Assembly (NCBI GenBank): GCA_018268995.1
Contig: JAFDVL010000046.1
Location: 117,715 to 181,714, forward strand
Length of the DNA: 64,000 nucleotides
Source of the DNA: Acidobacteriota bacterium
Lineage (GTDB): Bacteria; Acidobacteriota; Blastocatellia; RBC074
Reading direction: 5' to 3'
Shown: positions 1 to 17,886 of the stretch, in pieces
How the letters are laid out: each line of letters starts with the position of its first letter
Position numbering within the stretch: position 1 is the first letter of the stretch
The notes under the pieces: model-generated
Databases searched by the model: none
Seen by the model: only the letters and a program-made list of their open reading frames with translations
Told to the model about the DNA's origin: nothing
Made by a program: the position numbers and the translations under genes

Positions 1-2883
1 CAACTCGTAGACCTGCGAGAAGACAAAGCCGTGATCGCGTTGCCAGCCCGACGGGCCACGATTCAGATTCGCGTCGTAGAAGAAGTATCCACCGTCATCG
101 GCTGCCTGATCCTGATAGGTGTAATGCATCAGAATCGAGTAGCCATCTGAGAATCGCTTGTCGAGTTTGACTTGCAGCGAGTTGTAGCGGTTGTCGGCAC
201 AGTTGCAGAAGTAATCAATGCCCTGCGTCCAGCCAAATTTCTGGAAGTACGGTTTGGCTAATGTGCTGTTGCGACCCGGTGTGTAGCCCGTGATCGGCAC
301 CTGATTGGCATCAATCGCCGGGCCGTCACCTGCGAACACGTGTGTTCCTTTGTTGCCGACAAACGCGGCTTCAATGGACATCTTGCTGGTCAATTGATAC
401 TGCACCGTCACGTTGTACGCATCCACGCTTGGCAGCCGCATTTTGCTCGGTAATACGCGGGCAAAGACGCCATTGGGGAGGAAGAATTGACCGCTGGAAG
501 GCAGCGAAGTATTCGCCACGGCGGTCGGGTCTTTCGGCGCTTTGTTCAGTCCGAAAAATTGCGTAAACGCGGGCGCGCCATCGGCCAGATTAAAGGCACG
601 ATTAAAAGCACCGTTGTCCACGCGTTGTACTGCAAGCACGGGCAGGTTTTGCGTGACCGAATGTCCGAAGACTGATCCGAACACGCCGATGTCGTAGCTG
701 CGACCGTAGCCTGCACGAATCACGAGTTTATCTGACGCTTTGTAGGAAAGTGCCAGACGCGGAGCGATGTTGATGGAATTATCAACATTGCCATTCAGCT
801 TGGTGCTGCCCACACCGACGGTGCTGATCTGACCGGTTTCCAGGCTCAGGAAGCCCGCGTTTCCGGCTTTGTTAATGGATTGCGGATTGATGACATCTGC
901 CCGTAATCCGTAATTGATGGTCAGCTTGGAAGTGGCGCGCCACGAATCCTGACCGTAATAGAAATGCCGCCATTGGCGTTCACGCGCATCCGTGCTGGAG
1001 CTGATGTAACGACCAAAGCTTGTGACATCGCCCAGAAGGAATGTGGCAAGACCGAGGCCGGTTCCGCTGCCAAATGAAGTCCGTTCGTTGTTGAAGGACA
1101 ACTCACCCGAACGATGTGTGTCGCTCGGCACGCGCAGGTTGAAAGCGCGGCGAATATCAATCCCAAACTTGAAGGTGTGGTTGCCGACAAATTTCGTCGT
1201 GTTCGTCACGAACTGGAATTGATTTTCGTCCTGATCCAAGGGACAGTTGCAACGATTGACGCCAAGGCCGGAACCGAAGTTCGTGCCGCCCGTACCGCCG
1301 TTGCCGTTGATGAAACCAGCAAACAGGCCGGAACTGAACGCGTCATTATTCAGCCCGCGAATGCCCGCATCCGTGGCAGTATTTTTGCCGTAATCAAAGG
1401 GCAATACGTTGACTTTGTAACGGAAAAATCCAAACCGGAAGTCCGTGACAAGTGTCGCGCTCCAGGTGTAGTCAAAGCCGTAAGCGATGCTTTGATTGCG
1501 CACTTTGGAGGAACCACCGAGCGAAACCAATTCGGAACCGCCGCCCGCACCGAAAGCCGTTGGGCCAATGCGAACGAAATCCGCAAAGCTGTAGCGCCCA
1601 AACATGCTGAGTTTTTCAGAGGTGCGATAATCCATGCGGACATCGAAGCTGTCTTTGTCAAACCCTTCAATGCCGGACGCGACGTAGTTATCTGTTGTGC
1701 CATTCAAGCGACCGGGAGCATTCGGCAGCGGGATGAGCTTCAACACATTGAGAGCTTGTGCCGACAAACGAGCTGTCGGAATTTTATTGCTCGTGAATTG
1801 CGTACGCGCCGTCAATGCCCCAGAGGAATTGAAGACCGATGTTACCGGATCGTAGATGTTCACGCCATAGGCGCTCAGATCGCCTGTGCGCGCGGCAGCC
1901 GTGGGCACAGACAGCAACCGCGTGCCGCCGGTTTTGCTGCGCAGTCCTTCATAGTCGCCAAAATAAAACAGCCGATCTTTGATGAGTGCGCCGCCGATGG
2001 CACCACCGAATTGATTTTTCAGTGTGTCAGGAATGAATTTCCCCGTGAGCGAATCTTTGCGCGCCTGGGAAAACGGATTCCGGGCCTGAAACAAATCATT
2101 CTGGCGGAAAAGAAACACTGCACCGTGAATGTCATTTGTTCCTGATTTGGTGGAGACGGAAGCGACGCCCGCAATGGCTTGGCCAAATTCGGCGTCATAA
2201 TTTTGGGAGGTGACCTTGGTTTCGCCAATGGCTTCAAAATTGGGGTTGATGACGATGATGCCAAGAATCGGATCACGATTTTCGGTGCCGTCTAATTGGA
2301 AGCCAGTGCCGCTAAAGCTCTGCCCATTGACCATTGTCTGGGTGGAGCCTTGGGGGTTTTCGCTCGCTGCGTGTTGCCATTGCAATTGCTGCGTGCCGGG
2401 GGTCAATAAAATCAGTTTGGTAAAGTTGCGATCCAGGATTGGCAAATCTGTGACCTGGCGCGATTCAAAGGTTGTTGCCACGTCGGCGCGATCTGTTTTC
2501 AGCAGCGGTGCTTCAGCCGTGATGGTGACTTCTTCTGTCACTGCGCCTGCCTGTAGCTGAAAGTTTGCAGCGGTCGCGACGTCAATGTTGACTGTGACCT
2601 CTTGGACCGCAGCTTTGAAGTTCGGGGCTTCCACTTTGATCCGATAAAGTCCCGCTACCAGACGAGTCTGATTGAAATTGCCGTCTGTATTGGTTTCAGT
2701 GGTAAAGGTGAGATTCTTTCCCAAATCCGTAATTGTGACTTTAGCTTTGGGCAAAGCTGCTCCGCTCGGGTCGGTTACTGTTCCGAAAACGCTGCCGTAC
2801 ACGGCCTGCCCGAAGGCCTGGCTCGTCAAAGCGGAAAGCAAAAGGCACAATGCGATGAGGGAGAATCTCTGAACGGTTCTCAT
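1..2883 (-). CDS. TonB-dependent receptor with N-terminal carboxypeptidase-regulatory-like (CarbD/Cna B-type) domain. It is partial: the C-terminus runs off the left edge.
   Basis: The reverse complement of 2881-2883 is ATG and is preceded by a GGAGG RBS (reverse complement of 2889-2893). The translation begins MRTVQRFSLIALCLLLSALTSQAFGQAVYGSVFGTVTDPSGAALPKAKVTITDLGKNLTFTTETNTDGNFNQTRLVAGLYRIKVEAPNFK, i.e. a signal peptide followed by a CarbD domain as in Acidobacterial TonB receptors. The minus frame stays open to position 1. The + strand ORF 1114-2145 lies antisense to it. Confidence 0.75.
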   Translation of the reverse strand, partial: MRTVQRFSLIALCLLLSALTSQAFGQAVYGSVFGTVTDPSGAALPKAKVTITDLGKNLTFTTETNTDGNFNQTRLVAGLYRIKVEAPNFKAAVQEVTVNIDVATAANFQLQAGAVTEEVTITAEAPLLKTDRADVATTFESRQVTDLPILDRNFTKLILLTPGTQQLQWQHAASENPQGSTQTMVNGQSFSGTGFQLDGTENRDPILGIIVINPNFEAIGETKVTSQNYDAEFGQAIAGVASVSTKSGTNDIHGAVFLFRQNDLFQARNPFSQARKDSLTGKFIPDTLKNQFGGAIGGALIKDRLFYFGDYEGLRSKTGGTRLLSVPTAAARTGDLSAYGVNIYDPVTSVFNSSGALTARTQFTSNKIPTARLSAQALNVLKLIPLPNAPGRLNGTTDNYVASGIEGFDKDSFDVRMDYRTSEKLSMFGRYSFADFVRIGPTAFGAGGGSELVSLGGSSKVRNQSIAYGFDYTWSATLVTDFRFGFFRYKVNVLPFDYGKNTATDAGIRGLNNDAFSSGLFAGFINGNGGTGGTNFGSGLGVNRCNCPLDQDENQFQFVTNTTKFVGNHTFKFGIDIRRAFNLRVPSDTHRSGELSFNNERTSFGSGTGLGLATFLLGDVTSFGRYISSSTDARERQWRHFYYGQDSWRATSKLTINYGLRADVINPQSINKAGNAGFLSLETGQISTVGVGSTKLNGNVDNSINIAPRLALSYKASDKLVIRAGYGRSYDIGVFGSVFGHSVTQNLPVLAVQRVDNGAFNRAFNLADGAPAFTQFFGLNKAPKDPTAVANTSLPSSGQFFLPNGVFARVLPSKMRLPSVDAYNVTVQYQLTSKMSIEAAFVGNKGTHVFAGDGPAIDANQVPITGYTPGRNSTLAKPYFQKFGWTQGIDYFCNCADNRYNSLQVKLDKRFSDGYSILMHYTYQDQAADDGGYFFYDANLNRGPSGWQRDHGFVFSQVYEL

Positions 2884-3224
2884 AAATTTCCTCCCGTGAA
2901 TTGCCCCACCTATGGGCATCAGGAATAAAAGCTTAACGATAAAGCCCTACGCGATACACGTATCGCTTTGCCGATAAACCTGGGGGTTAATATGGATTGT
3001 TGATACGGATTCTGACCTCGTTGTCAGAATAGAATTCCCAGCAAAGTAACGTATTTGTCTTCAGGTCGGTATGTGTCGTCTTATCTTGCCTGAAGATCGT
3101 TTGGATAGTGTGAATAACTAACGAGTAGGGAAGGTACGATGCTTCAGATTGCTTTAGGCGTTACGACACGTATAATACAGTTACTTGAATTAATGCTGGG
3201 AAAATCAATGGTTAGAGGCTTGCA

Positions 3225-3275: not shown

Positions 3276-4469
3276 ATGAGCGTGCTAAAGGAAGAAAAGC
3301 TGCGTCAGCTTGATAAGGTTTTGCAATCCCATGCCTTGCACGGAGCAGAGAGCCTGAAAGCATTTCTTCGTTTTGTGGGCTTAAGCGCGATCAACCATCC
3401 TGAAACTCAACTCAAAGAATACGTCATCGCCACCGAAGTCTTTGGGCGTCGCAGCGATTACGATCCCCGCATTGACTCGGCTGTCCGCGTGCAGGCGGGG
3501 CGGCTACGCACAAAGCTGCAAGAGTATTACGCCACCGAAGGCAAGTACGACGAGGTGCATATTGATTTGCCAAAAGGGCAATACACGCCTGTCTTTTCTT
3601 ATGCCAAGCCGTCGCGCGCAGAAGATACCAACGGAACGCATCGCTTGACTGAAACGGCAGAGTCGCTGGCGTCTGCTTCCGTAAAACAGGTCGCACTTCC
3701 TTTATGGGAAGAGTTGTTGCGGGCACCAGAGCCTGTGCTGGTCATTTTCAGCAATAGCGTTTTTCACGGCAACTACGATGAGATGCGACTCTTTAACTCG
3801 CTGGATGTGTTGGAAGGTCATCACGATGTTCCCACTTCTGCTCCCAGCCTGAACCTTGGCCCGGGCCAAACGCCTGTGATTGATCATTACACCGGGATTG
3901 GCGAGGTGATGGGCGTTTATTTCCTCGGAGATTTCTTTGCCAAAATGCATCACCCCTTTCGGATCAAGCGCAGCCTCTTGCTGACCTGGGATGATGCCAA
4001 GATGGAAAATATCGTTGTGCTGGGGTCACCTGCCGAAAATCTGTTTTTGCTCGACCTGCCACAAAAACAGGAGCTGATTTTTAAATGGGTTCCCGATGAA
4101 AATGGAAAAGCCGTCAATGCGATTGTGAATACACGGCTGCAATCGGGCGAGCAGGAAGTGTATCGCGCCACGCAATATGGCAATTCGCCGAGTCAGGTTT
4201 CGGAAGACTATGCGACTGTCAGTGTATTGCAAGGGCTGAGCGGAAAGAACCGCATGATGATTCTGGCGGGGATCAATACGTTCGGCACCCAGGCTGCGGC
4301 AGAATATGTGACACAGCCGGAATACATCAAAGACCTGATTGCTCACCTGAATATTGCACCTGCGGGTGAGTCACCTCGTTTGCCGACCTATTTCCAAATC
4401 CTTCTCAAAGTAAAAGTGAATGGCGGCGTGCCGATTCATATTTCCTACGTCACGCATCACGTGTTGTAG
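3276..4469 (+). CDS. Putative transcriptional regulator: N-terminal OmpR/PhoB/CadC-type winged-helix DNA-binding domain plus an uncharacterised ~280-aa C-terminal domain.
   Basis: 397-aa ORF. The segment EVFGRRSDYDPRIDSAVRVQAGRLRTKLQEYY matches the trans_reg_C signature (VWG....RtvDvhIsrLRkKL). There is no receiver domain and no transmembrane segment. It is divergent from the upstream TonB receptor across a 390-bp intergenic region. Confidence 0.55.
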   Translation: MSVLKEEKLRQLDKVLQSHALHGAESLKAFLRFVGLSAINHPETQLKEYVIATEVFGRRSDYDPRIDSAVRVQAGRLRTKLQEYYATEGKYDEVHIDLPKGQYTPVFSYAKPSRAEDTNGTHRLTETAESLASASVKQVALPLWEELLRAPEPVLVIFSNSVFHGNYDEMRLFNSLDVLEGHHDVPTSAPSLNLGPGQTPVIDHYTGIGEVMGVYFLGDFFAKMHHPFRIKRSLLLTWDDAKMENIVVLGSPAENLFLLDLPQKQELIFKWVPDENGKAVNAIVNTRLQSGEQEVYRATQYGNSPSQVSEDYATVSVLQGLSGKNRMMILAGINTFGTQAAAEYVTQPEYIKDLIAHLNIAPAGESPRLPTYFQILLKVKVNGGVPIHISYVTHHVL

Positions 4470-4480: not shown

Positions 4481-6697
4481 CTAGCTGCCAATGATGAAAA
4501 AGGCATGTTCTTCGACGGCTTGCGCGCCTTGTTTGGTAATCACGCGGATTTCGTAATTTCCCGCTGTTTTGAAATTCTCCAACGGAACACGCGCAATATA
4601 GGGAATCCTGCCTTGTGCATCCGGTGCAGGCAATTCAAGCTGGCCGCGTGCGACCGATTGCCCATCCAGCAATACTTCCAGAATTAATTGTGGCTTGTCT
4701 GTGCTTCCGCGCAATGGGTAAATGACCGTGTAAATTCCTAGCTCGCTGCCCGCTACGGGCTTAATTGGCTCTCCCAGATTCGGAATGATTTTGCCGGTTT
4801 GAAAGCGAAATGGATTGTCATCGCTGGCACTGGATTGATCTATCGGATCAATTCGCTTGATGATGGAAACGCTGCTCATCTTCAGGTTCTCACCTCGATT
4901 CGGCACCAACAGGATTGAGCGTCGCACGGCTTTTTTATTGGTTTCGCGGTCGTGCGCAACTGTTTCCAGCGTGTAGCGACCGGGCGGAACATCAAAGGCA
5001 CGCGTAAAAACGAGATTGCCTTTTTTTAGCGCTTCCAGTCGCGTGGTTGGCCCATCCAGCGGGAAGTCTTCGCTGAATTTATGCACGACACGTCCTTCGC
5101 TGTTTTTCAATAAGGCCAACAGCGAACAATGGGTGCTGTACAGCTTGGTTGTCTCGTCCACCTTGAAAGTCAGATTTGCCAACGGCACTTCCAACACCAG
5201 CATTTCCTGCGTGCCATTAGGCCGATCTGCGAAATGCAGAATCTGCTGCCGAATGTCGAAATCACGCGGCAATGGTTTGGCACTGAGCGCGGCTAACATG
5301 GGCAATTCGTACGGCAGCAATTGCGCCACACCTTCCATTGTCGGCACTGCGAAATAGCCGCTGCGTGTTTGCAGCACAATGTCCGGGCGTAAAGCCTTGA
5401 CTGTGATTGTGCGGAACTTGCCGTCGAATTCTTTTCCTGTCGGGCTGTAGGACGCTTCGTAGTACGAATTTAATTCCGCCAGCACGCGTTTCATCGGCGT
5501 CCGAAAATCATTCGTGTTGGCAACAAAAGCGCCGCCCGTACTTTCTGCCAGCGATGCCAGATTGTTTTGCGTGTTTTTCGTGATCGCACTTTCGGCATTA
5601 TCGAATGCTTTGACCTGTTCGACGGTCACGGCTTCGCCGCCACGCGTGCGTTGTTGACGTTGCGTTGCGGCGACGGCGGAATTCAGCGATTCTTTAGCTG
5701 AATCAAAATCGCTTTGGGTTTGTAAGCCGCGCGCGTCCATCGCATAAAAACTGACATTCGCGCGATTGGCGGAGCTGATTGTGGTCTGAAATGCGTCCTT
5801 TAAATTCGGCGGAACCTGCAAGCCTTCTGAGAAATACACGACCGTTTTACGTCCCAGCAATTTCTTTTGTCCTTCAATTAGCGAAAGCAACGAAAAGATG
5901 GAAGCCTGCCCTTGCTGTTGTCGCGCTGAATCATCCGCCAATCGCAGAATGTTGAGCGTGACTTCTGCCGCCTTTGCATCCGCAAACGCTCCACCGTTGA
6001 CCGTGCTGGCCCCGCCCTGGCCGACCGACGCCGCAGACTGCGCTGCCGTGGCATCTGCTTTGGTGAAGTTTTCCAATTCCTGTCGAATCTTTTGTGATTC
6101 GCTGGCAAAAGACGAAGGAGCCATTCCGATGACACGATCAACCGCTGTTTTAATGCGATCCCGGTCGCTGGTGAAGGATTGAATTGCGCTCAGTCGCTGA
6201 TCAAGGGCGAAGATAGCAACCATCACGTTTGGCCCGTATTCTTCTTTTAGAAACTCCATCGCTGCCATCCGCGCATTGCGACGACCATCCGGGCTGAGCC
6301 GCTCAAACACAAACGATACCAGGTTGATTTGTCGCGTTGGGTCGGCGGTTGAAGGCACATTCGTCTTCGGCGCATTGGCTGGCGTGGTGGAATTACTTCC
6401 GGCTTCAACCACAGCCTCTCGATTCACCAACCGAAACGAAGTGATTTCCTGTTTGACGCCGTCTTCGTAAATTTCAATGTCACCCGCTTTCAGATCGCGT
6501 ATGCCGCGCCCCTTCTTGTCGCGCACCACAATATCGAGCAGCACTTCTTCTGCTCCGATGCGCAGCACTTCGCCTTGCAGGGGCGGCTTTTGTTGCGGTG
6601 GCTGGGGTGTTTGTGCGAGAACTGGACAGAGGAGTGCGCAGACCAGGAAATGAGCTAATCCGAAGCGGAGTCTAAACATAAAATTTCTCCAAAACAT
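4481..6697 (-). CDS. Secreted VWA (von Willebrand factor A) domain protein that resembles the Acidobacteria-specific VWFA family (TIGR03436)
   Basis: ~738 aa. The N-terminus has a hydrophobic signal sequence and then LRIGAEEVLLDIVVRDKKGRGIRDLKAGDIEIYEDGVKQEITSF, which is typical of that family, followed by a VWA region. The ATG at 6697 overlaps the cytochrome stop codon (TGATG). An alternative ATG lies at 6679. Confidence 0.75.
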   Translation of the reverse strand: MFWRNFMFRLRFGLAHFLVCALLCPVLAQTPQPPQQKPPLQGEVLRIGAEEVLLDIVVRDKKGRGIRDLKAGDIEIYEDGVKQEITSFRLVNREAVVEAGSNSTTPANAPKTNVPSTADPTRQINLVSFVFERLSPDGRRNARMAAMEFLKEEYGPNVMVAIFALDQRLSAIQSFTSDRDRIKTAVDRVIGMAPSSFASESQKIRQELENFTKADATAAQSAASVGQGGASTVNGGAFADAKAAEVTLNILRLADDSARQQQGQASIFSLLSLIEGQKKLLGRKTVVYFSEGLQVPPNLKDAFQTTISSANRANVSFYAMDARGLQTQSDFDSAKESLNSAVAATQRQQRTRGGEAVTVEQVKAFDNAESAITKNTQNNLASLAESTGGAFVANTNDFRTPMKRVLAELNSYYEASYSPTGKEFDGKFRTITVKALRPDIVLQTRSGYFAVPTMEGVAQLLPYELPMLAALSAKPLPRDFDIRQQILHFADRPNGTQEMLVLEVPLANLTFKVDETTKLYSTHCSLLALLKNSEGRVVHKFSEDFPLDGPTTRLEALKKGNLVFTRAFDVPPGRYTLETVAHDRETNKKAVRRSILLVPNRGENLKMSSVSIIKRIDPIDQSSASDDNPFRFQTGKIIPNLGEPIKPVAGSELGIYTVIYPLRGSTDKPQLILEVLLDGQSVARGQLELPAPDAQGRIPYIARVPLENFKTAGNYEIRVITKQGAQAVEEHAFFIIGS

Positions 6698-7857
6698 CAA
6701 TCAATATAGGCCTCGCCTGCTTTGACGATGCGAATGCGATGGTCAGTAAATTTGTGATGCGCGCCGGGAATTTCATATTGTGGCATATGACACGAAACGC
6801 AATTGTTTGTCTTTCCATTTTTGCACAAGGGAGCCGTCCGTCCGGCATTGGTCGCGGGCGCAGTCCGATGACAGGCCGCACATTTTGTATCGTAGAACGC
6901 GGCTTCCTGTGTTGATGCTTCGTGTGGATTATGACACGCCGTACAACTGATGCGTTTGTCATCAAAGTCATAACACTTGCTGCTGAAAATTCGATACGGC
7001 TGAAAACGCACGTTCACCACGCCGCGCGCATTTTTCATCATCTGCACCTGCTCCCACGTGCGATGACACGAACCGCAGAATTGCGTCATTCCTTCGTTGT
7101 CGAAATGTCCCGGATTCAAAATTGCTTTGTTCGCAGATTGCGCGGCGGGCATTTTGGATTTCATCCGCGTCACGTGTTTTTCGCCTGCGCCGTGACAGCC
7201 TTCGCACGTAATGCCCGGCGTCATTTTTTCCACTTGAAGCGTTCGTTCGCTAACGGCGGCTGTCGCGTGGCAGCTAAAGCAATCCTTTGTATCCAGCGAA
7301 TCCATGATTCGTCCGAAAGCTTCTTCTAAAGAATTCGCAGGCTGCCGGGGTGCGCCCAGCGTGTAATCCAGCCCGGCGATTTCATCATAGAAACTGACGC
7401 GGCTTTCATAGTATTTGCCGTTGTGTACTAGCACATACGTTTGTCCCGCTTTGCCTTGCCCGAACGCATACAGAATCGGCACCGACATCGTTGCTTTGCC
7501 ATCGGTGACGGAATAAATACTTTGCGAACCCTGCCGAGAGATGGAGTAGGAATACACACCGCTTTTGAATGTCAGCTTCGGATTCGCTTTGAGAATCCTG
7601 CATTCTTCGCCCAGTTCTAACGCTTTGCCCATTGGGGTTGAGGGTTGCGTTTCCGTTTGTGTGTGGCACTCTGCGCAGGCCCGATTCCCGACGTATTGAT
7701 CTCCCGCTCGTGCATGCGTTGCCCGCCATTCGGTGGCCGGAGCAAAGGATTTCCCTGCCGATTGGCTCAGCAGTTTCAGCGGATTCCAGAAAAACGCTAT
7801 AGTACCGAATGCCAGCATCAGAAGCGTTAATTTCGTGACACGAGAAGTGTGATTCAT
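6697..7857 (-). CDS. Multiheme c-type cytochrome with 7 CxxCH motifs, signal-anchored
   Basis: 386 aa. Seven CxxCH motifs: CAECH, CFSCH, CEGCH, CGSCH, CTACH, CAACH and CVSCH. The N-terminus has a hydrophobic anchor (LTLLMLAFGTIAFFW). The start codon overlaps the upstream TPR stop (TAATG) and the stop overlaps the VWA start. Confidence 0.8.
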   Translation of the reverse strand: MNHTSRVTKLTLLMLAFGTIAFFWNPLKLLSQSAGKSFAPATEWRATHARAGDQYVGNRACAECHTQTETQPSTPMGKALELGEECRILKANPKLTFKSGVYSYSISRQGSQSIYSVTDGKATMSVPILYAFGQGKAGQTYVLVHNGKYYESRVSFYDEIAGLDYTLGAPRQPANSLEEAFGRIMDSLDTKDCFSCHATAAVSERTLQVEKMTPGITCEGCHGAGEKHVTRMKSKMPAAQSANKAILNPGHFDNEGMTQFCGSCHRTWEQVQMMKNARGVVNVRFQPYRIFSSKCYDFDDKRISCTACHNPHEASTQEAAFYDTKCAACHRTAPATNAGRTAPLCKNGKTNNCVSCHMPQYEIPGAHHKFTDHRIRIVKAGEAYID

Positions 7858-9065
7858 TACGGCTTTTTTTCTTCGGTTGAATCGCCGATAAAGCTTTCCT
7901 TTTTCGAGCGGCGGATTTTATCCAAACGCATGAACTCTGCCCGCGCACGATCCGCATCCGCTTTGCGTCCGGCCTTTGAATAGGCTCGTGCCAGCGCAAA
8001 GAACATTTCAGGGCTATCCGGGGCTTGTTTGACGCCGATTTCCAATTCTTTGATCGCGCGTTCAGTCTGCCCGGTTTCAAGCAGGATTCGCCCCAGAGCA
8101 TTGTGCGCGGCAAAGAGATCAGGCGCTAATTTTACGGCTTCTTCTGCGTAACTTAATCCGGCGGCGGGTTCACTTCGCTTGAGAAACTCGAACGCAATTT
8201 GCAGCCGAGCAAAAACGTGATTTGGCGAAATCTGCAATTCATTTTTGAATTCGCGCACTGCTTCATCGGGCGAATCGCGCAGGAAAAACAGACCGTAGGC
8301 GTAATGCACGCCGGGCATTTGCGGGAAGACGGCCAGCAATTCGCTGAATTCCTGGGCTGCAATCGCTCGCTTGTCCGCTGCCATAAAATACGCCGCGCGA
8401 CCAGTTTTCATCACGACTTCGCGTTTGTCCGCAGGCGCTTCTCCAGGCAGGTAAGGCAATCGCAGCATCATCAGGCCAAAAGCTTCAAAGATGGAAGGGC
8501 TTTCATTTTGGAATTTGGCTAATTCCTGCAACACGGCATACGACAATTCAAATTGCTCAAAGCGATTCATCAGGATCGCTGCATGATAACGCGTCACATT
8601 CGCGATTTCCTGATTGCCGCCCAGCCCCAGATCGCGCCCACGTTGCAAGTGCAACAACGCGTTTTGATAATCCTTGAGTTGATATTCGCACAGTCCCAGG
8701 AAGGCCCATCCCACGCCGCCTCTGGGTTCCAATGCCACCAATCGCTTGAACGCCTCGCGGCCTTCGCCGTAACGATCCTGCTGATAATAAATCGTCCCCA
8801 GCGACCACCAGCCCTGTATCCAATTCGGCTTCTGTCGGACAGCTTGCTGAAATAGGTTGATGGCCTCCGCCAGATTGTCTGCTTGCCGTGCCGCTTCGGC
8901 GCGTTGTGTCAATTGCTCGAAAGACGCAGTTGTTGCAGGCGGTGTTGTGCGTCGCTTGGTGGGTTGTGCTGGAACAAACATGACGAAGCAGAGCAGCAGG
9001 CCAAGCCCCAGCAACAAGGGTTGGATCAAAGATAAATTTAGTTGTTTTCGTCCAACAAAAATCAC
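7857..9065 (-). CDS. TPR repeat protein, secreted or periplasmic
   Basis: 402 aa with multiple TPR-like helical repeats (AEAINLFQQAVRQKPNWIQGWWSLGTIYYQQDRYGEGREAFKRLVALEP and others). The N-terminus has a hydrophobic signal sequence. A GTG start at 9065 overlaps the upstream TPR stop. Confidence 0.7.
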   Translation of the reverse strand: MIFVGRKQLNLSLIQPLLLGLGLLLCFVMFVPAQPTKRRTTPPATTASFEQLTQRAEAARQADNLAEAINLFQQAVRQKPNWIQGWWSLGTIYYQQDRYGEGREAFKRLVALEPRGGVGWAFLGLCEYQLKDYQNALLHLQRGRDLGLGGNQEIANVTRYHAAILMNRFEQFELSYAVLQELAKFQNESPSIFEAFGLMMLRLPYLPGEAPADKREVVMKTGRAAYFMAADKRAIAAQEFSELLAVFPQMPGVHYAYGLFFLRDSPDEAVREFKNELQISPNHVFARLQIAFEFLKRSEPAAGLSYAEEAVKLAPDLFAAHNALGRILLETGQTERAIKELEIGVKQAPDSPEMFFALARAYSKAGRKADADRARAEFMRLDKIRRSKKESFIGDSTEEKKP

Positions 9066-10219
9066 TCTGGCTTCTCCTGCGCCCCGGGTTGCTTCGCCTG
9101 ACGTTCGGCGTTGAGCTTGTTCACAATGGCTTGCTCTCGATCTCCGTCCGCCTTGCGTCTCAGGCGATAATACACGGTTGCCAGCATCACGTGTGCCTCG
9201 ACAAAATCAGGTGCATCCTTGACCAATTGCTCAAGCTCCGGCAATGCCTCTGCGATCTTGCCCTGACCGACGCGGATGCTTTCAATGTAAAAGCGTGCAT
9301 TCGGTTCTGCCGGACGCACCAACAATGCCCGCCGAAAATATTTCAGCGCTTCATCCGGGTTTTGATCCTGCTTGAGAATGATTCCCATTTGCAGATTGGC
9401 GTCGAAATCATTCGGATTGTTTTCCAATTCCAGTCGGAATTCTTCTTTAGCTTGATCCGTGTTGCCCGTCATCGTGAGTGCTCGCCCGTAGAACGCATGC
9501 ACGGTGGGCAATTTGGGATTTAATTTTGCCGCCTCTGCCAGTTCTTTTACTGCATTGGCGTAATCGGCTGACAGCAAATGTGTCGTGCCAAGCAGCATAT
9601 GCGCTTCGGCAGAATCCCCGCCCCGCATAATTTTCTCGATTTGCTGCTGGCCTTTTTCGGCTTGTTTGTCGCGCAGCAACGCCGTGCCGAGCAGGTAGGC
9701 CAACGCTTTATCCTGCGGATATTTGGCTTCGAGTGGTGTCAGCAGTGCAATGATTTTTGGGTACTCGCCCATCTGCAAATAACAATCAGCGAGCAGCAAC
9801 GTGGCATTCGGATTTTCCGGTTGAATGGCAACAACTTTTTCAAGTTCCTGCGAAGCTAAGACGATACGCGCCGATTTGTAGTACGCGACTGCCAGATTGA
9901 ACCGGATGCCGGGATTGCGACCATCCAACAACAAGGCGCGATTGTATTGCTCGATAGCCTCCTGAAATCGCCCCAGCCGCGCCAACACCGCGCCCAGATT
10001 GGAGCGGGCATCGGTGCGCTCCGGGCGTTCGGCCAGAAAAGCCTGATATTCCTTGATAGCATTTTCCAAATCGCCTGCCTGATGAAGCTGAACGGCGCGC
10101 GCAAAAATTCGGTCGGGATTGTTCGTTGCTTGTTTAGCTGGTTGTGCCCAGATCGTAAATCCGGCGATCAACCACCAGCCACACAGTGCAACCATCGTCT
10201 GAATCTTTCGCTTCTCCAT
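9062..10219 (-). CDS. TPR repeat protein, secreted or periplasmic
   Basis: The ORF track extends to 10291, but the internal ATG at 10219 (MEKRKIQTMVALCGWWLIAGFTIWAQP, a signal peptide) is preceded by GAGGAAG. Many TPR units follow (NAIKEYQAFLAERPERTDARSNLGAVLARLGRFQEAIEQYNRALLLD and others). Confidence 0.7.
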   Translation of the reverse strand: MEKRKIQTMVALCGWWLIAGFTIWAQPAKQATNNPDRIFARAVQLHQAGDLENAIKEYQAFLAERPERTDARSNLGAVLARLGRFQEAIEQYNRALLLDGRNPGIRFNLAVAYYKSARIVLASQELEKVVAIQPENPNATLLLADCYLQMGEYPKIIALLTPLEAKYPQDKALAYLLGTALLRDKQAEKGQQQIEKIMRGGDSAEAHMLLGTTHLLSADYANAVKELAEAAKLNPKLPTVHAFYGRALTMTGNTDQAKEEFRLELENNPNDFDANLQMGIILKQDQNPDEALKYFRRALLVRPAEPNARFYIESIRVGQGKIAEALPELEQLVKDAPDFVEAHVMLATVYYRLRRKADGDREQAIVNKLNAERQAKQPGAQEKPE

Positions 10220-10278
10220 GAATACTACTTCCTCACGAATTTTTGCTTTTTGAATCGTTCCTATAGTGACGAAAAAAG

Positions 10279-10306
10279 AGGGCGCTGACAAGCAGCGCCC
10301 TTTTTT
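10279..10306. terminator. Bidirectional rho-independent terminator hairpin between the TonB receptor and the TPR operon
   Basis: GGGCGCTG-acaag-CAGCGCCC, flanked by an A-run upstream and a T-run downstream on the + strand. On the minus strand the same stem is followed by TCTTTTTTCG, 24 nt after the TonB receptor stop. Confidence 0.5.
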
Positions 10307-10329: not shown

Positions 10330-13300
10330 TTAGAAGGTAAACCTTACACCCAAGTTGATGATGCGACGCCCGAATTTGTTGTTTGTCCAGCGCGCAAAGT
10401 TTGTTTGCGTTGCTGCTGTTGGAACAAATTTCGGACTGGCAGAATTTGCGTTCTGCGTCTCAAACTGTAAGTTCAGATTTTCGTCTTGCAACGACTTGAG
10501 CGGGTGATTCAAGACGTTGTTCGCTGAAGCTCTGAATTGCAGCTTCTTGGACTCAGAGATCGAAAATGTCTTCGCCAGGGTAAGGTCGTGGTTATTGTAC
10601 GCCGGCCCCTTCAGATACGGGAAAATATACACACCCGATTGTCCTTGTGCCGGGGGCGCAAAGCAGTTCAGATTTGCATATTGGTTCTCGCTTAATCCCT
10701 TGCGTGGATCGCAGGTCAGGATTGGCTGAGCGGATGTATCCGTTGTGCCAAGCACTGAACCTACGTTGCCGGGGTTGTAGATGGTGACCAATTCAGTCGC
10801 CGGTTTACCCGTACACAACGAAGCTGTGGCCGGATTCCTGGAGGCATATTCACAGGTTTGCTGTAACGCTCCGCTTAAACGGAAGTTGACGTTGCTGGCT
10901 TGGATGGGATAGCCGCTGGCGAACTGTGTGATGCCTGATAATAACCAGCCATCCAAAATTCCACGCGCGACCTTGCTGTCTGTTTTCATCAACTCCTGCG
11001 CAAACTTGGGCAATTCGACGGTGTACGCGATATTGAAAACATGCGTACGGTCATATCCCAGAATGCCGTAGGTGTGGCCACGTAAATCAAGTGCATCTGC
11101 CTGTGCTCCCTGATTGCTACCGTTGCGAATGCCTAATGCTTTCGAGAAGGTGTAGGAACCCAGGAAGTTGATCTTGCCAATCTGGCGGCTTAAGACCGCT
11201 TGCATCGAATTGTAGTTTTGGTAGGCAATGTGATTCACCACATTGACCGTTCCAAATCCCTGATAGGGTCTGAACGCATCGCAGTTTCCGCCTGCCAGAG
11301 CGGCGGTGCGGCATCCTGCGGTGCCCAGCGGAACCAGATTCGCATTGCGTGTGAATAACTGATCCCGGCTACGATTGCCGACATACGCAACTTCCAGATT
11401 CAATGATGCTGGCAACCGTTGTTGAATCGTAAAGCTGTAGCTATCCACGTACGGTTGTTTATCGTCATTGCGATCCAGGACTTCAAAGCTGGTAATCAAA
11501 TCAGCAGCAGCGCGTGCGGCGGCTTCATTAGCATACTTCGCATTGATTGCACTGAATGTGGTCGAGCCTGTGCTGCCCACGCGACGAACGCCTGCCGCAA
11601 TGTCCAACCCACTGGTGAGCTGAGCATCGTGGAAATACGAACGTCCGTAGCCACCACGTAGCACCGTCTTGCCATTGCCGAAGAGGTCATAGGCGAAACC
11701 TAAACGTGGAGCCGCAAAAAGCGGTTTGGTTGGCGCACCGGAAAGCGGAACACTGCTGTCAATCTTGTTCCATAAGACTCCCGGCAATTTGCCTTGCGCG
11801 GCGGCGGCGGCATTGAATTTTGTCGAATCAAAAACGGCAAATCCGTTTCCTTGACGGTCGTACCATTTGCCAAGGTGATAGAAGCGTGCGCCTAAGTCCA
11901 ACGTCAGACGACGATTTACTTTCCAGTTATCTGAACCGTAAAACTCGAAGGTATTGAACCCAATGTTGCGCAGCGTGTTCTTGGTGGATTCCTGATAATC
12001 GCCCAGCCGTCCGAGCAGCAGGTCAGCCATCGCATTCCCGCTGGTGTTGCCGTGCCAGGTTGAGAACACTGCGAAACCATTTGACCAGTCGTTACCGGGC
12101 TGGTTGTTCACCACGTGTTCGTAGTAGCCGCCAAATTTCAAGGTGTGGGTGCCTTGTACTTTGGTCAGGTTATCTGAAAAGTTGGCCAAGTGCTTGGTTG
12201 CAAACAGAATCGGATCGAAGCCGCCGGGGTTAATCATTTGTGCGCCTTCGCCCCATGCCAGGCTGACCGCAGGAATGAGGTCGAGTCCGTTTTTCAATAG
12301 CCCTTGGAACGGAATGCCCAGCGCTTTCTTAGAAACCTTGGTGGAATCCTCAAACTGATTGGGGAAGTCAATGAAGCTATACCCAAACACGACTTCATTC
12401 GTCAGTGTCGGCGTAAAAACTTTCGTCAAGCTGGCACTGACAGAATCCGAACGGTTCGGGGCCACCACCGGAGTCGGGTAGGGCACCTGACTCCCATTGC
12501 GCCACCATAACCCAATTGGGAAAGGTTGCACTTCGGTTTGCAGGTTATAGCGCGCATAAAACTTCGTGCTTTCGCTAATATTGTAATCAATACGCGTCAG
12601 CGTTTGCTTCATGTTTTGATCCAGGGTCAAAGCCTGAAGGTAGTTGTATCCGTTATTAGCGCTGGGATCAGCGTTAGGCAAGGGAAGCAGACCCATGAGG
12701 ATTTTGCCTGTTGGATCAATCGCACTGGAAGCAATTTTCCCGCCTGTGATCAGACCGGCTAAGCCGTTATCTGTGGTAGCTGCGGGAACGGCGTTAATCT
12801 GACTGGAAACCAGTTTTGACAGATAAGTCGCGTCACTGAAATCACCGGTACGCATGGCCGCCGTTGGCACACGCGAACGGATAATGCCTGTGTCCAGGCG
12901 TTGCTTCATGTATTCAAACCCGACGAAGAAGAAGAGTTTGTCGCGATTTTTGTTGAAATCTGTCCAGGGCAGTACAACCGGGCCGCCGATGTTTCCGCCA
13001 GGAAACGCATAGAAGTTTTCCGGGCGAGTGAGGCTAGCCTTGTTAAATGACCAGTCATTTGAATTTAATTTGTAGCTACGGAAATAGCTGTAAGCCGCGC
13101 CGTGAAATTCTTTACCGCCAGCTTTACTGATGAAGTTGATGACCACCGGGCCTTTGGAAACATCCGCACCGAAGTTTGAGGTCGAAACCTTGAACTCTTC
13201 GATCATATCCGGGTTCGGATTGATCGGCGTAGCGCAGTTGCAACCGGGGTCAGAAATGTGAGCACCGTCTGCGACGATGTCGAGCGCTTCGGCGCGCGTT

Positions 13301-13917: not shown

Positions 13918-14394
13918 AAAAATCCTCCTGGGTTGAGGGAAATTCCTATCGGCTTTAACTTGATAGGCTGTTAATTCATCAAGCTTCAAATATAAAGCAA
14001 CGCATACCGTTTACCTTATATCCGTGAAGCAAAAGCAAATGCCTTTTTAAGACAATGCCCGTAAGGAGCGTCTATTTAAAAGCAACGAGATTCCCAGCAA
14101 GAAGCGATTGATTTATAAACTTGGCTTATTTGGTTTATTTGATTGATGATTCGATGCCATCATTTTGCGGGCGCATAATATGACAGCCGATGAGGTTAGT
14201 CAACCTGTTGGTGGGTGGTAAGGTCAAACTAAAGTTGGATATTCTGCCGTCGCCAGATGATCGGGTTTTTAATAAGTGTGCATATGTAGGAAGCGGTTAT
14301 CAATCTCTAGATTTGTTACAGCAATCAGGCGTAGTAGTGATTCCGAATCACGACCGATATTTCGATGTCACGCCCCATTGATTGCATCCGTGAG

Positions 14395-15216: not shown

Positions 15217-15245
15217 CTCAACTCCCTCAAACCCGAAACTCGAAA

Positions 15246-16112: not shown

Positions 16113-16139
16113 ACTGATTCAAAAGAAAGCCTTGTGAAT

Positions 16140-16307
16140 ACGCGAAGCGCCTGGGAGCGCAGGCGTTGCGCCTGCTTACGAGCGCGTAAGCAGCTCGGCA
16201 GGCTTTACAAGGAAATTGCTTGATCCTAAGCGACTCACTCTCCACGCCTGGCGCATTGCTTCGCTCGTGCAGCAGGCGCAACGCCTGCGCTCCCAGGCGC
16301 TTCGCGT
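16140..16307. repeat. 168-bp element bounded by perfect 36-bp inverted repeats, with internal palindromes; MITE-like or a large structured RNA element
   Basis: The left arm ACGCGAAGCGCCTGGGAGCGCAGGCGTTGCGCCTGC (16140-16175) is the exact reverse complement of the right arm at 16272-16307. Between them lies a palindrome GCTTACGAGCGCGTAAGC. The element sits between the GH32 stop codon and the permease start codon. Confidence 0.6.
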
Positions 16308-16322
16308 TTTATACAAATTCAA

Positions 16323-17858: not shown

Positions 17859-17886
17859 GATAGAGTCTTTTAAAGGAACGGCAACC

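What the first reader, a model, noticed from the sequence alone, without database searches (positions are those of the whole stretch)
4481..10219. Translationally coupled, all-secreted operon: TPR - TPR - heptaheme cytochrome c - Acidobacterial VWA protein
Four genes overlap by 1-4 nt at every junction (TGATG, TAATG, GTGA), which implies tight co-translation. All four products have signal or anchor sequences. A 7-heme c-type cytochrome is embedded between TPR scaffolds and a VWA protein of the Acidobacteria-specific TIGR03436-like type. This suggests an extracytoplasmic redox module attached to a protein-interaction scaffold, which is not a described respiratory complex. A bidirectional terminator isolates it from the upstream TonB receptor.
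Basis: partly seen in the sequence, partly recalled or inferred. Interest (0 to 1): 0.6.

Follow-up and report, generated by a model that had tools for sequence, protein, structure and literature searches.

The report
Conserved acidobacterial cytochrome–TPR–VWA envelope cassette
The four overlapping genes are real and form the core of a widespread, undescribed gene cassette of soil Acidobacteria, in which a new seven-haem cytochrome is linked to TPR scaffold proteins, adhesion-type proteins and a TonB-type outer-membrane barrel inside sugar-polymer-degrading gene clusters.

Summary
On the minus strand, TPR1 (10219..9062), TPR2 (9065..7857), a cytochrome with 7 CxxCH motifs (7857..6697) and a TIGR03436 VWA protein (6697..4481) are tightly packed behind a strong terminator hairpin.

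It is not an isolated four-gene unit. In about 90 related loci (cytochrome 43-85% identical) the same families recur: a CarboxypepD_reg/OMP_b-brl_4 TonB-type barrel, a small TPR protein, the VWA protein, TPR1, TPR2, the cytochrome and a CRTAC1-like FG-GAP/UnbV_ASPIC propeller. TPR-cytochrome fusions exist in both orders.

The barrel-terminator-TPR1 layout is itself conserved, so the terminator does not mark the edge of the system. Neighbours are rich in glycoside hydrolases (at least 24 of 153 ORFs). In the window these are GH32 genes plus a sugar ABC transporter.

The cytochrome belongs to none of NrfB, MtrA or MtrC/OmcA. Its weak nearest relatives are c554, OcwA and MccA, and a confident model (pLDDT 84) has no significant Foldseek match in the PDB.

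Best reading: an exported redox module scaffolded by TPR proteins, accessory to TonB-dependent glycan-uptake loci, not a respiratory complex. Its biochemical function is untested. I found no description of it in the searchable literature.

The parts
10330..13989 (-). OMP1: TonB-dependent-type outer-membrane barrel with an N-terminal CarboxypepD_reg domain. It is a conserved upstream partner of the operon.
   Evidence: PF25183 OMP_b-brl_4 at 502 bits and PF13620 at 75 bits. Homologues in L092 and L093 also hit the Plug domain. It is syntenic in L001, L003, L004, L005, L008, L012 and L014-L017.
10270..10301 (-). Intrinsic terminator or attenuator hairpin (AGGGCGCTG-CTTGT-CAGCGCCCT) plus a T-run, between OMP1 and TPR1.
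   Evidence: Found by the terminator scan. A GC hairpin with a T-run occupies the same junction in 12 of the 13 related OMP-TPR1 junctions folded, all but L016, with a different sequence in distant loci such as L014, L043 and L080.
9062..10219 (-). TPR1: exported TPR protein of 385 aa. It belongs to an orthologous family with a conserved N-terminal motif, IFARAVQLHQAGDLE.AI.EYQ.FL.
   Evidence: Multiple TPR Pfam hits. It is 52-86% identical to syntenic proteins in other loci, against about 26% to TPR2.
7857..9065 (-). TPR2: exported TPR protein of 402 aa with a GTG start that overlaps the TPR1 stop (GTGA). It is the most constant neighbour of the cytochrome.
   Evidence: It lies immediately upstream on the same strand in 23 of 43 non-redundant loci. 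TPR-cytochrome fusion proteins exist, such as P0247 of 977 aa.
6697..7857 (-). CYT7: heptahaem c-type cytochrome of 386 aa. It has a signal sequence, haem 1, a beta-sheet domain of about 85 residues (80-165), and then six closely spaced haems.
   Evidence: It has 7 CxxCH motifs; their cysteines and all motif histidines but His65 (at least 90%) are invariant. Pfam Paired_CXXCH_1 and Cytochrome_C554 pass their cut-offs. The AlphaFold2 model has pLDDT 84.4 and pTM 0.81. The best PDB sequence relatives are OcwA and c554.
4481..6697 (-). VWA: exported TIGR03436-type VWA protein of about 732-738 aa. The start is either the ATG at 6697, which overlaps the cytochrome stop, or more likely the ATG at 6679 behind a GGAG.
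   Evidence: TIGR03436 at 216 bits against a cut-off of 81. There is no Pfam or PDB sequence hit. The MIDAS motif is degenerate, FERLS here and VFDRLS in the consensus. Homologues lie within 8 kb of the cytochrome in 13 of 17 well-flanked loci.
3276..4469 (+). Convergent 397-aa ORF with no family hit. Its homologues recur divergently upstream of a second barrel gene, so it may be a regulator.
   Evidence: No Pfam or NCBIfam hit. Homologues occur in L014-L017, L043, L046 and L080. Its N-terminal 90 residues are shared with a malectin-domain protein next to the cytochrome in L010.
1..2919 (-). OMP2, partial because it runs off the window start: a second CarboxypepD_reg/OMP_b-brl_4 barrel. In the sister assembly it is followed by a small TPR protein and an FG-GAP/UnbV_ASPIC propeller.
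   Evidence: tblastn gives 26% identity over 991 residues to OMP1. L094, which is 99.5-99.95% identical to the window, shows OMP2 of 1144 aa followed by a TPR protein and then the propeller.
22249..25823 (-). A second pair of an FG-GAP/UnbV_ASPIC (CRTAC1-like) propeller (25823..24009) and a 587-aa TPR protein (24012..22249). It heads the GH32/ABC block upstream of OMP1.
   Evidence: FG-GAP_3 at 172 bits and UnbV_ASPIC at 73 bits, plus TPR hits. It is homologous to human CRTAC1, PDB 9etn, with E = 3.5e-27.
14395..22235 (-). Fructan-utilisation block: a GH32N/GH43-like gene, a MalK-type ABC ATPase, a solute-binding protein, GH32 and two ABC permeases, directly upstream of OMP1 on the same strand.
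   Evidence: Pfam hits. The same order is seen in L094.

Best explanation
The four genes are the core operon of a conserved cell-envelope cassette of Acidobacteriota.

Shown:
- The cassette families are a TonB-dependent-type barrel (CarboxypepD_reg + OMP_b-brl_4), a small TPR protein, a TIGR03436 VWA protein, TPR1, TPR2, a dedicated heptahaem cytochrome (CYT7) and a CRTAC1-like FG-GAP/UnbV_ASPIC propeller.
- The order varies between lineages, but TPR1-TPR2-CYT7 stays tightly linked.
- The cassette sits inside loci rich in glycoside hydrolases and sugar transporters. Here these are GH32 plus a sugar ABC transporter.

Inferred:
- All products are exported by Sec.
- TPR1 and TPR2 act as scaffolds that hold CYT7 and connect it to the VWA and/or propeller proteins and to the barrel.
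- CYT7 is a new heptahaem member of the c554/MccA/OcwA branch of multihaem cytochromes. It would have a c554-like four-haem module, a beta-sheet domain inserted between haems 1 and 2 as in OcwA and MccA, and three further haems.
- One haem, probably haem 2, may have an open coordination site.
- CYT7 therefore works as a periplasmic or envelope reductase or electron-transfer module. It would act on something captured or imported by the TonB-type system, such as metal-organic complexes or oxidised or mineral-bound glycans.
- The hairpin after the barrel gene most likely sets a high ratio of barrel to accessory proteins, or separates two co-located transcription units.

It is not a respiratory complex or a transmembrane electron conduit.
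For: Synteny:
- OMP-TPR1-TPR2-CYT7-VWA is conserved at 71-85% cytochrome identity.
- At about 50% identity all four families stay within 8 kb although rearranged (L006, L009).
- Among 69 non-redundant loci, TPR2 is the immediate upstream gene in 23 of 43, and TPR1-TPR2 in 13 of 28.
- The gene directly downstream is the propeller or the VWA protein in 29 of 47.
- In 17 loci with enough flank, TPR2 is within 8 kb in 15, VWA in 13, the barrel in 12 and the propeller in 11.
- Loci from megabase-sized contigs show the full set followed by GH3, SASA, GH51 and GH39 genes (L092), or by GH3 and a Reg_prop/Y_Y_Y sensor kinase (L093).
- This genome holds the missing parts just outside the window.

Physical linkage of TPR proteins and cytochrome:
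- Junctions are tight.
- Fusions exist in both orders. P0247, of 977 aa, is TPR followed by CYT7 and has 23 cluster members from several assemblies. P0331 and P0374 carry a CYT7-like part followed by TPR repeats.

Glycan context:
- At least 24 of 153 non-cassette neighbour ORFs are glycoside hydrolases: GH3 x11, GH97 x4, GH10, GH5, GH67, GH42, GH20, GH27 and GH2. ROK and DeoR regulators also occur.
- A GH97 gene sits directly upstream of CYT7 in L018, L019 and L025.
- The window has GH32 genes and a MalK/SBP/permease set.

Nature of the cytochrome:
- It has 7 conserved CxxCH motifs (cysteines invariant; His65 at least 90%), but only 4 other invariant His and 2 nearly invariant Met. That is 6 candidate distal ligands for 7 haems.
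- A profile search of the PDB finds OcwA (E = 1.7e-6) and c554 (E = 5.8e-6). CYT7 haems 1-4 align with their haems 1-4.
- The best Foldseek hit is MccA.
- In OcwA, c554 and MccA haem 2 is the open active-site haem, and OcwA and MccA share an extra beta-sheet domain (PMC6703420, PMC9250108).
- The model places a beta-sheet domain of about nine strands at residues 80-165, between haems 1 and 2.

Against a respiratory role: no quinol dehydrogenase or cytochrome b family recurs among the neighbours.
Against: - There are no expression, localisation or biochemical data, so the function is inferred only from context and remote homology.
- The relation to OcwA, c554 and MccA is weak. Short stretches give E of about 1e-6, and the Foldseek hit has E = 0.069 and TM 0.23.
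- The open haem rests only on a count of conserved ligands.
- The enrichment in glycoside hydrolases was not tested against a genome-wide background, and Acidobacteria are rich in such enzymes and in TonB-type barrels.
- The conserved terminator could mean that barrel and operon are regulated separately.
- The window's own operon lacks the propeller. Some cytochrome homologues stand without any cassette partner (L007, L025, L077).
- The VWA MIDAS motif is degenerate, so metal-dependent adhesion is doubtful.
- The signal peptides were judged by eye.
Confidence: 0.45

Rival explanations
1. Outer-membrane electron conduit. The barrel and the heptahaem cytochrome would form a porin-cytochrome-like complex for extracellular electron transfer to Fe(III), Mn(IV) or humics. 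The TPR, VWA and propeller proteins would act as assembly or mineral-adhesion factors.
For: - A multihaem cytochrome is conserved next to an outer-membrane barrel.
- The nearest solved relative, OcwA, is a cell-surface Fe(III)-oxide reductase.
- Adhesion-type domains (VWA, FG-GAP) are present.
Against: - The barrel is of TonB-dependent type, with CarboxypepD_reg, a Plug domain in homologues, and OMP_b-brl_4. It is not MtrB-like or OmbB-like.
- There is only one cytochrome, with 7 haems.
- The scores for MtrA/DmsE and GSU2203 are far below their cut-offs.
- There is no second, extracellular cytochrome and no inner-membrane quinol dehydrogenase in the cassette.
- A terminator separates the barrel gene from the cytochrome operon.
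- The neighbours are glycoside hydrolases and sugar transporters.
Confidence: 0.15
2. Dedicated maturation system. TPR1 and TPR2 would be CcmI/NrfG-like apocytochrome chaperones needed only to attach haem to CYT7. The VWA protein and the barrel would be unrelated neighbours.
For: - TPR1 passes the cut-off of PF23914, TPR_CcmH_CycH (66 against 42 bits).
- TPR proteins such as NrfG and CcmI are known to serve cytochrome c maturation (established knowledge).
- TPR2 is strictly adjacent to CYT7 in many loci.
Against: - Generic TPR proteins cross-hit many TPR families. TPR1 scores higher on MamA, PrsT and PilW models, all below their cut-offs.
- All seven motifs are canonical CxxCH and need no special lyase.
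- Stable TPR-cytochrome fusion proteins argue for a permanent complex, not a transient chaperone.
- Pairs of a TPR protein and a propeller or a barrel occur without any cytochrome, for example window 22249..25823 and L010.
- The VWA protein, the barrel and the propeller co-occur far too often to be unrelated.
Confidence: 0.1
3. Periplasmic stress or aerotolerance complex of the Bat type. VWA and TPR proteins with a cytochrome would deliver reducing power to the envelope to cope with oxidants (peroxidase- or NO-reductase-like detoxification), independently of nutrient uptake.
For: - The combination of VWA and TPR proteins recalls the Bacteroides BatA-E operon (my own knowledge).
- TPR1 weakly hits the BatC model.
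- Relatives in the c554/OcwA group reduce NO or nitrite in vitro.
Against: - No MoxR ATPase, DUF58 or membrane-anchored VWA protein appears among the frequent neighbour families.
- The BatC score of 32 bits is far below its 175-bit cut-off.
- This reading does not explain the consistent pairing with barrels and glycoside hydrolases.
Confidence: 0.1
4. The cytochrome is the electron acceptor of a periplasmic sugar-oxidising enzyme. The propeller or an unrecognised partner would oxidise imported sugars and pass electrons through CYT7 to the respiratory chain. This would be analogous to PQQ dehydrogenase/cytochrome pairs, with the VWA protein helping metal insertion as in the mxa genes.
For: - The glycan context.
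- The propeller is the commonest gene directly downstream of CYT7, in 15 of 47 loci.
- About 4 of 33 propeller homologues carry twin-arginine signals, which suggests export in a folded or cofactor-bound state.
- A GSDH-type dehydrogenase is among the neighbours.
Against: - FG-GAP/CRTAC1 propellers have no known redox activity, and most of them here have Sec signals.
- The window operon has no propeller.
- No cofactor-binding motif was identified.
Confidence: 0.12

Closest known systems
OcwA (Thermincola potens nonahaem surface reductase, PDB 6I5B) and the related MccA and cytochrome c554
   Same: - It is the best sequence-profile match, with E = 1.7e-6. c554 gives 5.8e-6, and MccA is the best Foldseek hit.
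- The order of elements is the same: haem 1, an insertion of more than 100 residues, then closely spaced haems 2, 3 and 4.
- OcwA and MccA also carry an extra beta-sheet domain, and haem 2 is their open active site (PMC6703420).
   Different: - CYT7 has 7 haems, against 9, 8 and 4.
- There is no MccA-type CX15CH motif.
- The model shows no C-terminal three-helix bundle.
- Similarity is confined to the haem motifs, and there is no significant global fold match.
- The genomic partners (TPR proteins, VWA, propeller, TonB-type barrel) are unlike those of any of these proteins.
SusC/SusD-type polysaccharide utilisation loci and TonB-dependent carbohydrate utilisation (CUT) loci
   Same: - A TonB-dependent-type barrel with an N-terminal CarboxypepD_reg domain is followed directly by an all-helical TPR-type protein.
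- A constant transport and accessory core sits among variable glycoside hydrolases, sugar transporters and sensor regulators.
   Different: - No SusD family member was detected, and the TPR proteins show no lipoprotein signal.
- The core also contains a multihaem cytochrome, a VWA protein and an FG-GAP propeller. As far as I know, none of these is part of described PUL or CUT cores.
Porin-cytochrome complexes (MtrCAB, PioAB/MtoAB, Geobacter Pcc)
   Same: A multihaem cytochrome is encoded next to an outer-membrane beta-barrel.
   Different: - The barrel is a different family and is plugged.
- The cytochrome is not MtrA-like or DmsE-like (34 against 192 bits).
- There is no extracellular cytochrome partner.
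Bacteroides Bat (aerotolerance) operon and MoxR-VWA systems
   Same: Exported or envelope VWA proteins are encoded together with several TPR proteins.
   Different: - There is no MoxR ATPase or DUF58 gene.
- The VWA protein is the acidobacterial TIGR03436 type with a degenerate MIDAS motif.
- A cytochrome is present.
Integrin alpha/beta head (FG-GAP propeller plus VWA-like domain) and human CRTAC1
   Same: - The cassette pairs an FG-GAP propeller protein with a VWA protein.
- The propeller is homologous to CRTAC1, PDB 9etn, with E = 3.5e-27.
   Different: - The two are separate bacterial exported proteins.
- No interaction has been shown.
- The MIDAS motif is not conserved.

Membership tests
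NrfB pentahaem cytochrome | Score at or above the curated cut-off of PF22678 or TIGR03146, and five haems | tested here: not met
   PF22678 scores 18.3 bits against 27. TIGR03146 scores 16.4 against 166.6. The protein has 7 CxxCH motifs.
MtrC/OmcA outer-membrane decahaem cytochromes | MtrC/MtrF domain II/IV (PF22113) and about 10 haems | tested here: not met
   PF22113 is not among the hits of the window protein at E <= 0.01. Stored annotations of homologues show only faint or weak hits. The protein has 7 haems.
MtrA/DmsE and GSU2203 periplasmic decahaem cytochromes | Score at or above the cut-off of TIGR03508 or NF041028 | tested here: not met
   TIGR03508 scores 33.8 against 192.2, and NF041028 scores 42.8 against 325.
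Cytochrome c554 / paired-CXXCH module (domain level) | Score at or above the Pfam/TIGRFAM domain cut-offs | tested here: met
   PF09699 scores 40.4 against 20.6. PF13435 scores 26.1 against 20.8. TIGR01905 scores 27.0 against 25.2.
Cytochrome c554 of Nitrosomonas (equivalog) | NF043010 score at or above 400, and four haems | tested here: not met
   The score is 16.4 bits and the protein has 7 haems.
c554/MccA/OcwA clade of multihaem cytochromes | Sequence homology of the N-terminal four-haem module | tested here: inconclusive
   The profile search against the PDB gives OcwA at E = 1.7e-6 and c554 at 5.8e-6, over stretches of 40-90 residues centred on the haem motifs.
c554/MccA/OcwA clade of multihaem cytochromes | Superimposable haem core, and (for OcwA and MccA) an extra beta-sheet domain | tested here: inconclusive
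c554/MccA/OcwA clade of multihaem cytochromes | Penta-coordinated (open) haem 2 | not testable with these tools
   There are only 6 conserved candidate distal ligands for 7 haems: H228, H312, H367, H373, M76 and M358. This is consistent with an open haem but is not proof. EPR or a solved structure is needed.
TIGR03436 acidobacterial VWA domain family | Score at or above the curated cut-off of 81.25 bits | tested here: met
   The score is 216.1 bits, covering residues 45-451.
Canonical VWA/integrin I-domain | Intact MIDAS motif (DxSxS ... T ... D) | tested here: not met
   The window protein has FERLSP, and the consensus of 25 homologues is VFDRLS. SEG replaces TDG.
Porin-cytochrome complex | MtrB/OmbB-type plugless porin plus a periplasmic and an extracellular multihaem cytochrome | tested here: not met
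   The barrel is CarboxypepD_reg plus OMP_b-brl_4, with a Plug domain in homologues. Most cassettes have a single cytochrome.
SusC/SusD polysaccharide utilisation locus | SusD-family lipoprotein next to a SusC-type TonB-dependent transporter | tested here: not met
   The proteins that follow the barrel hit only TPR families among the matches listed. TPR1 shows no lipobox.
SusC/SusD polysaccharide utilisation locus | Glycoside hydrolases, sugar transporters and sensor regulators clustered with the transporter | tested here: met
   - In the window: GH32 x2 and a MalK/SBP/permease set.
- In L092 and L093: GH3, GH51, GH39, SASA and a Reg_prop/Y_Y_Y kinase.
- Across loci: at least 24 of 153 neighbour ORFs are glycoside hydrolases.
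- No background control was run.
Bat/MoxR-VWA system | MoxR AAA+ ATPase and DUF58 protein alongside the VWA proteins | tested here: not met
   Neither family is among the 25 most frequent neighbour families in either batch, nor in the window genes scanned from 14 to 30 kb.

The most novel reading that the evidence does not exclude
A previously unrecognised type of nutrient-foraging machine in soil Acidobacteria, in which redox chemistry assists TonB-dependent uptake. A dedicated OcwA-like heptahaem reductase would be tethered by TPR scaffolds to an integrin-like VWA/FG-GAP pair. It would carry out redox chemistry that releases or processes glycans before or during import. One example is reductive release of polysaccharide bound to Fe(III) or Mn minerals or metal complexes. 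Another is electron exchange with an unrecognised carbohydrate oxidoreductase. The cassette would then be the acidobacterial counterpart of the SusC/SusD core with a redox component added.
Probability: 0.2. Interest if true: 0.85.

Novelty: new variant of a known kind. Interest (0 to 1): 0.66.

Why it matters
- Acidobacteria are among the most abundant soil bacteria, yet how they acquire carbon is poorly understood.
- The cytochrome family is very large. It has more than 3,000-4,700 clusters at 90% identity, and 1,058 representatives at 50% identity with E <= 1e-30.
- It has no solved relative of the same fold, and its partner set is constant.
- If the cassette links haem-based redox chemistry to TonB-dependent glycan uptake, that would be a new principle for polysaccharide utilisation. 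It could also provide a molecular link between soil carbon turnover and iron or redox cycling.
- Even on a conservative reading, it defines a new multihaem cytochrome family and gives a functional context to three large orphan acidobacterial families: the TIGR03436 VWA proteins, the OMP_b-brl_4 barrels and the CRTAC1-like propellers.

Tried and rejected
- **First structure model.** The AlphaFold2 model built from 24 sequences was poor (pLDDT 48). A 143-sequence alignment gave pLDDT 84.
- **PDB sequence searches.** The VWA protein gave nothing, and the barrel matched only through its CarboxypepD_reg domain.
- **The 397-aa ORF.**
  - It looked to me like a divergent OmpR/CadC-type winged helix.
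  - Pfam and NCBIfam found nothing, even at E <= 10.
  - BLAST against the Trans_reg_C protein of the window found nothing either.
  - The regulator idea therefore rests on position only.
- **Literature.** Seven full-text searches found no description of the cassette. They covered ASPIC/UnbV with cytochrome and TPR, Acidobacteria with multihaem, TonB and VWA, PULs with FG-GAP, SusC/SusD with ASPIC, and CRTAC1 with multihaem. The Solibacter genome paper lists VWA, TonB-dependent receptor and ASPIC/UnbV only as expanded paralogue families.
- **Families rejected on score.** Membership of NrfB, MtrA/DmsE, GSU2203 and MtrC/OmcA was rejected.
- **Systems rejected on parts.** The porin-cytochrome and Bat readings were rejected because their defining parts are missing.
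- **Taxonomic range.** Only Acidobacteriota names appear among named hits, apart from one MAG labelled Heliobacteriaceae. Looking up ten distant representatives returned only one named member, an Acidobacteria MAG protein in the P0247 cluster.

Full report
**1. The observation**

The minus strand carries four consecutive ORFs: TPR1 at 10219..9062, TPR2 at 9065..7857, a cytochrome at 7857..6697, and a VWA protein at 6697..4481.

The junctions are as follows.
- TPR1/TPR2 overlap by GTGA.
- TPR2/cytochrome overlap by TAATG.
- Cytochrome/VWA can be read as a TGATG overlap. The gene call stored for a 99.5%-identical assembly instead starts the VWA gene at an ATG 18 nt downstream, which has a GGAG 8 nt before it. 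This third overlap is therefore uncertain.

The protein assignments hold.
- The cytochrome has seven CxxCH motifs. All their cysteines are invariant in 24 and in 143 homologues, and so are the motif histidines except His65, which is kept in at least 90% of the 143.
- The VWA protein scores 216 bits on TIGR03436, whose cut-off is 81.
- Both TPR proteins pass several TPR cut-offs.
- All four N-termini look like Sec signals. This is by inspection only.

A hairpin of 9 bp with 7 G-C pairs, followed by a T-run, lies at 10301..10279 between the upstream barrel gene and TPR1.

**2. Organism and family size**

The cytochrome is identical to a protein of an Acidobacteria MAG. Its close relatives are named Blastocatellia, Pyrinomonadaceae and Terriglobia.

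The family is very large.
- Two searches gave more than 3,254 and more than 4,719 clusters at 90% identity with E <= 1e-5.
- Among representatives at 50% identity, 1,058 have E <= 1e-30.

**3. Synteny**

At 71-85% cytochrome identity, the order barrel-TPR1-TPR2-cytochrome-VWA is kept (L001, L003, L004, L005, L008).

At about 50% identity the same families remain together in other arrangements.
- L006 has all four within 8 kb, on different strands.
- L009 has: barrel, VWA (divergent), TPR1, TPR2, cytochrome, FG-GAP/UnbV_ASPIC propeller, and a CarboxypepD_reg-TPR protein.

Eighty metagenome loci with 43-61% identity were fetched. Their ORFs were labelled by BLAST against seed proteins. After reduction to 69 loci with less than 80% cytochrome identity, the counts were:
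- TPR2 is the immediate upstream same-strand gene in 23 of 43 loci.
- TPR1-TPR2 precede the cytochrome in 13 of 28.
- The next gene downstream is the propeller in 18 of 47 and the VWA protein in 11 of 47.
- Among 17 loci with enough flank, TPR2 is within 8 kb in 15, VWA in 13, the barrel in 12 and the propeller in 11.

The commonest distant layout is VWA (divergent) | TPR1 TPR2 cytochrome propeller, often preceded by the barrel and a CarboxypepD_reg-TPR protein. Two loci from megabase-sized contigs show exactly this layout with Pfam-annotated genes.

TPR1 and TPR2 are specific orthologous families. They are 48-86% identical across loci but only about 26% identical to each other, and each has its own conserved N-terminal motif.

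Junctions within TPR1-TPR2-cytochrome are mostly overlapping or at most 30 nt apart.

**4. The terminator and the barrel**

Every barrel-TPR1 junction has a gap of 35-168 nt. Nearly all of the junctions folded (all but L016) contain a strong GC hairpin with a T-run. The sequence is conserved in close relatives and different in distant ones such as L014, L017, L043 and L080.

The hairpin is therefore a conserved feature inside a conserved gene order. It does not mark the edge of the system.

**5. The rest of the cassette in this genome**

L094 comes from another assembly and is 99.5-99.95% identical to the window. It extends past the window start. There, the partial second barrel (window 1..2919, minus strand) is followed by a small TPR protein and an FG-GAP/UnbV_ASPIC propeller.

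The window also holds another pair of a propeller and a 587-aa TPR protein at 25823..22249. All cassette families are thus present, split into two or three units.

**6. Genomic context**

Between that pair and the first barrel lie a GH32N-like gene, a MalK-type ATPase, a solute-binding protein, GH32 and two permeases. This is a fructan-utilisation block.

Elsewhere the cassette is followed by other carbohydrate genes.
- L092 carries GH3, SASA, GH51 and GH39, and L093 carries GH3 and a Reg_prop/Y_Y_Y sensor kinase.
- Of 153 non-cassette neighbour ORFs of at least 180 aa, at least 24 are glycoside hydrolases: GH3 x11, GH97 x4, GH10 x2, GH5 x2, GH67, GH42, GH20, GH27 and GH2.
- ROK and DeoR regulators, an aldose epimerase and a GSDH dehydrogenase also occur.
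- In L018, L019 and L025 a GH97 gene sits directly upstream of the cytochrome.

No NapC/CymA-type, NrfD-type or cytochrome b family recurs.

I did not run a background control. The enrichment is judged against my own expectation of a few per cent glycoside hydrolases in acidobacterial genomes.

**7. The cytochrome**

It falls below the cut-offs for NrfB, DmsE/MtrA, GSU2203 and Nitrosomonas c554. It passes only the generic Paired_CXXCH_1 and Cytochrome_C554 domain models.

A profile search of the PDB finds OcwA (6I5B, E = 1.7e-6) and c554 (E = 5.8e-6). MccA, OmhA and NrfA appear at E > 0.01. The alignments pair CYT7 haem 1 with their haem 1, and CYT7 haems 2-4 with their haems 2-4.

With 143 sequences, AlphaFold2 gives pLDDT 84.4 and pTM 0.81. 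The model has an N-terminal helix, the haem 1 region, a beta-sheet domain of about nine strands at residues 80-165, and then the six-haem region. Foldseek against the PDB finds nothing with E <= 1e-3. The best hit is MccA, with E = 0.069 and TM 0.23.

According to the OcwA paper (PMC6703420) and the evolutionary study (PMC9250108):
- c554, MccA, OcwA and OmhA form one clade.
- Their haem 2 is the penta-coordinated active site.
- OcwA and MccA share an extra beta-sheet domain.

CYT7 has the same order of elements. Outside the motifs it has only four invariant His (228, 312, 367, 373) and two nearly invariant Met (76, 358). That is six candidate distal ligands for seven haems.

I infer that CYT7 is a new heptahaem offshoot of this clade, possibly with one open haem. 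This is not shown.

**8. Link between cytochrome and TPR proteins**

- P0247 (977 aa) has TPR repeats at 90-606 and the complete CYT7 at 629-976. Its cluster has 23 members from JGI, ENA and NCBI assemblies, one of them named Acidobacteria.
- P0331 and P0374 have a CYT7-like N-terminal part followed by TPR repeats.

Fusions in both orders, together with the tight adjacency, argue for a stable TPR-cytochrome complex.

**9. The VWA protein and the propeller**

The VWA family has a degenerate MIDAS motif: FERLS in the window and VFDRLS in the consensus. It also has a conserved C-terminal region of about 290 residues with no family hit.

The propeller is homologous to human CRTAC1. About 4 of 33 homologues have twin-arginine signals, and the rest have Sec signals.

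**10. Interpretation**

The evidence supports a conserved envelope cassette associated with TonB-type barrels in glycan-utilisation loci.

The most likely mechanism is a TPR-scaffolded, exported reductase or electron-transfer module that acts on material captured or imported by the barrel system (confidence 0.45).

The rivals and their confidences are:
- a porin-cytochrome-like conduit (0.15);
- electron acceptor of a periplasmic sugar oxidoreductase (0.12);
- TPR proteins as maturation chaperones (0.10);
- a Bat-like stress complex (0.10).

No paper in the searchable library describes the cassette.

**11. Verdict**

Its boundaries were drawn too narrowly, and its context is nutrient acquisition rather than respiration.

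I rate it a new variant of known kinds: a TonB-dependent utilisation locus, and a multihaem cytochrome of the c554/OcwA superfamily. Interest is 0.66. It would be higher if redox-assisted foraging were demonstrated.

Noticed in passing
L003:6141-6827, L004:6131-6811, L005:2234-2914: A gene for a Uma2-family putative restriction endonuclease, of about 226 aa, is inserted between TPR1 and TPR2 in three related loci. It breaks the GTGA coupling seen in the window, so translational coupling of TPR1 and TPR2 is not essential.
   Followed up: partly
window 4332-4393 and within 7857-9065, compared with L094: Two assemblies of the same population (99.5-99.95% identical) differ by a 24-nt indel inside TPR2. 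They also differ by about 53 nt of repeat length near the 3' end of the 397-aa ORF. That difference changes the called product from 397 to 375 aa.
   Followed up: partly
window 10255-10275 and the equivalent sites in L001, L003, L004 and L008: Directly after the terminator T-run there is a conserved TTTTTTCGTCA(G/C)TATAG(T) element. It could be the -10 region of a promoter for the TPR1 operon.
   Followed up: no
window 30495-42340 (minus strand): Three tandem giant exported proteins of 1001, 868 and 2065 aa carry DUF11, DUF7619 and DUF7927 repeats. Together they form a surface-protein block of about 12 kb.
   Followed up: no
L009:11217-12959, L010:984-2657, L046, L078, L024: Some FG-GAP/UnbV_ASPIC propellers next to the cytochrome have canonical twin-arginine (SRRxFLK) signals, while most have Sec signals. 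Tat export of a CRTAC1-like propeller hints at a bound cofactor or metal.
   Followed up: partly
window 3276-4469 and L010:8297-9919: The unannotated 397-aa ORF shares its first 90 or so residues (37% identity) with a 540-aa malectin-domain protein that lies next to the cytochrome in a Terriglobia locus. This is an unrecognised N-terminal domain, possibly DNA-binding, but no tool confirmed that.
   Followed up: partly
L016, L040, L069, L031: Several loci carry two or more cytochrome paralogues. They lie side by side (L040, L069, L031) or in a second barrel-TPR-cytochrome unit (L016). This indicates paralogous expansion of the cassette within genomes.
   Followed up: no
window 57450-60608 (minus strand): A 1052-aa type IIG-like restriction-modification fusion enzyme with N6_Mtase, Eco57I and MmeI methylase domains.
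   Followed up: no
L003 (CAZWAK010000041.1): A MAG labelled 'uncultured Heliobacteriaceae' carries the full acidobacterial cassette. Its cytochrome is 73% identical and its barrel 81% identical to those of the window. This is probably a mislabelled bin or a contaminating contig.
   Followed up: no
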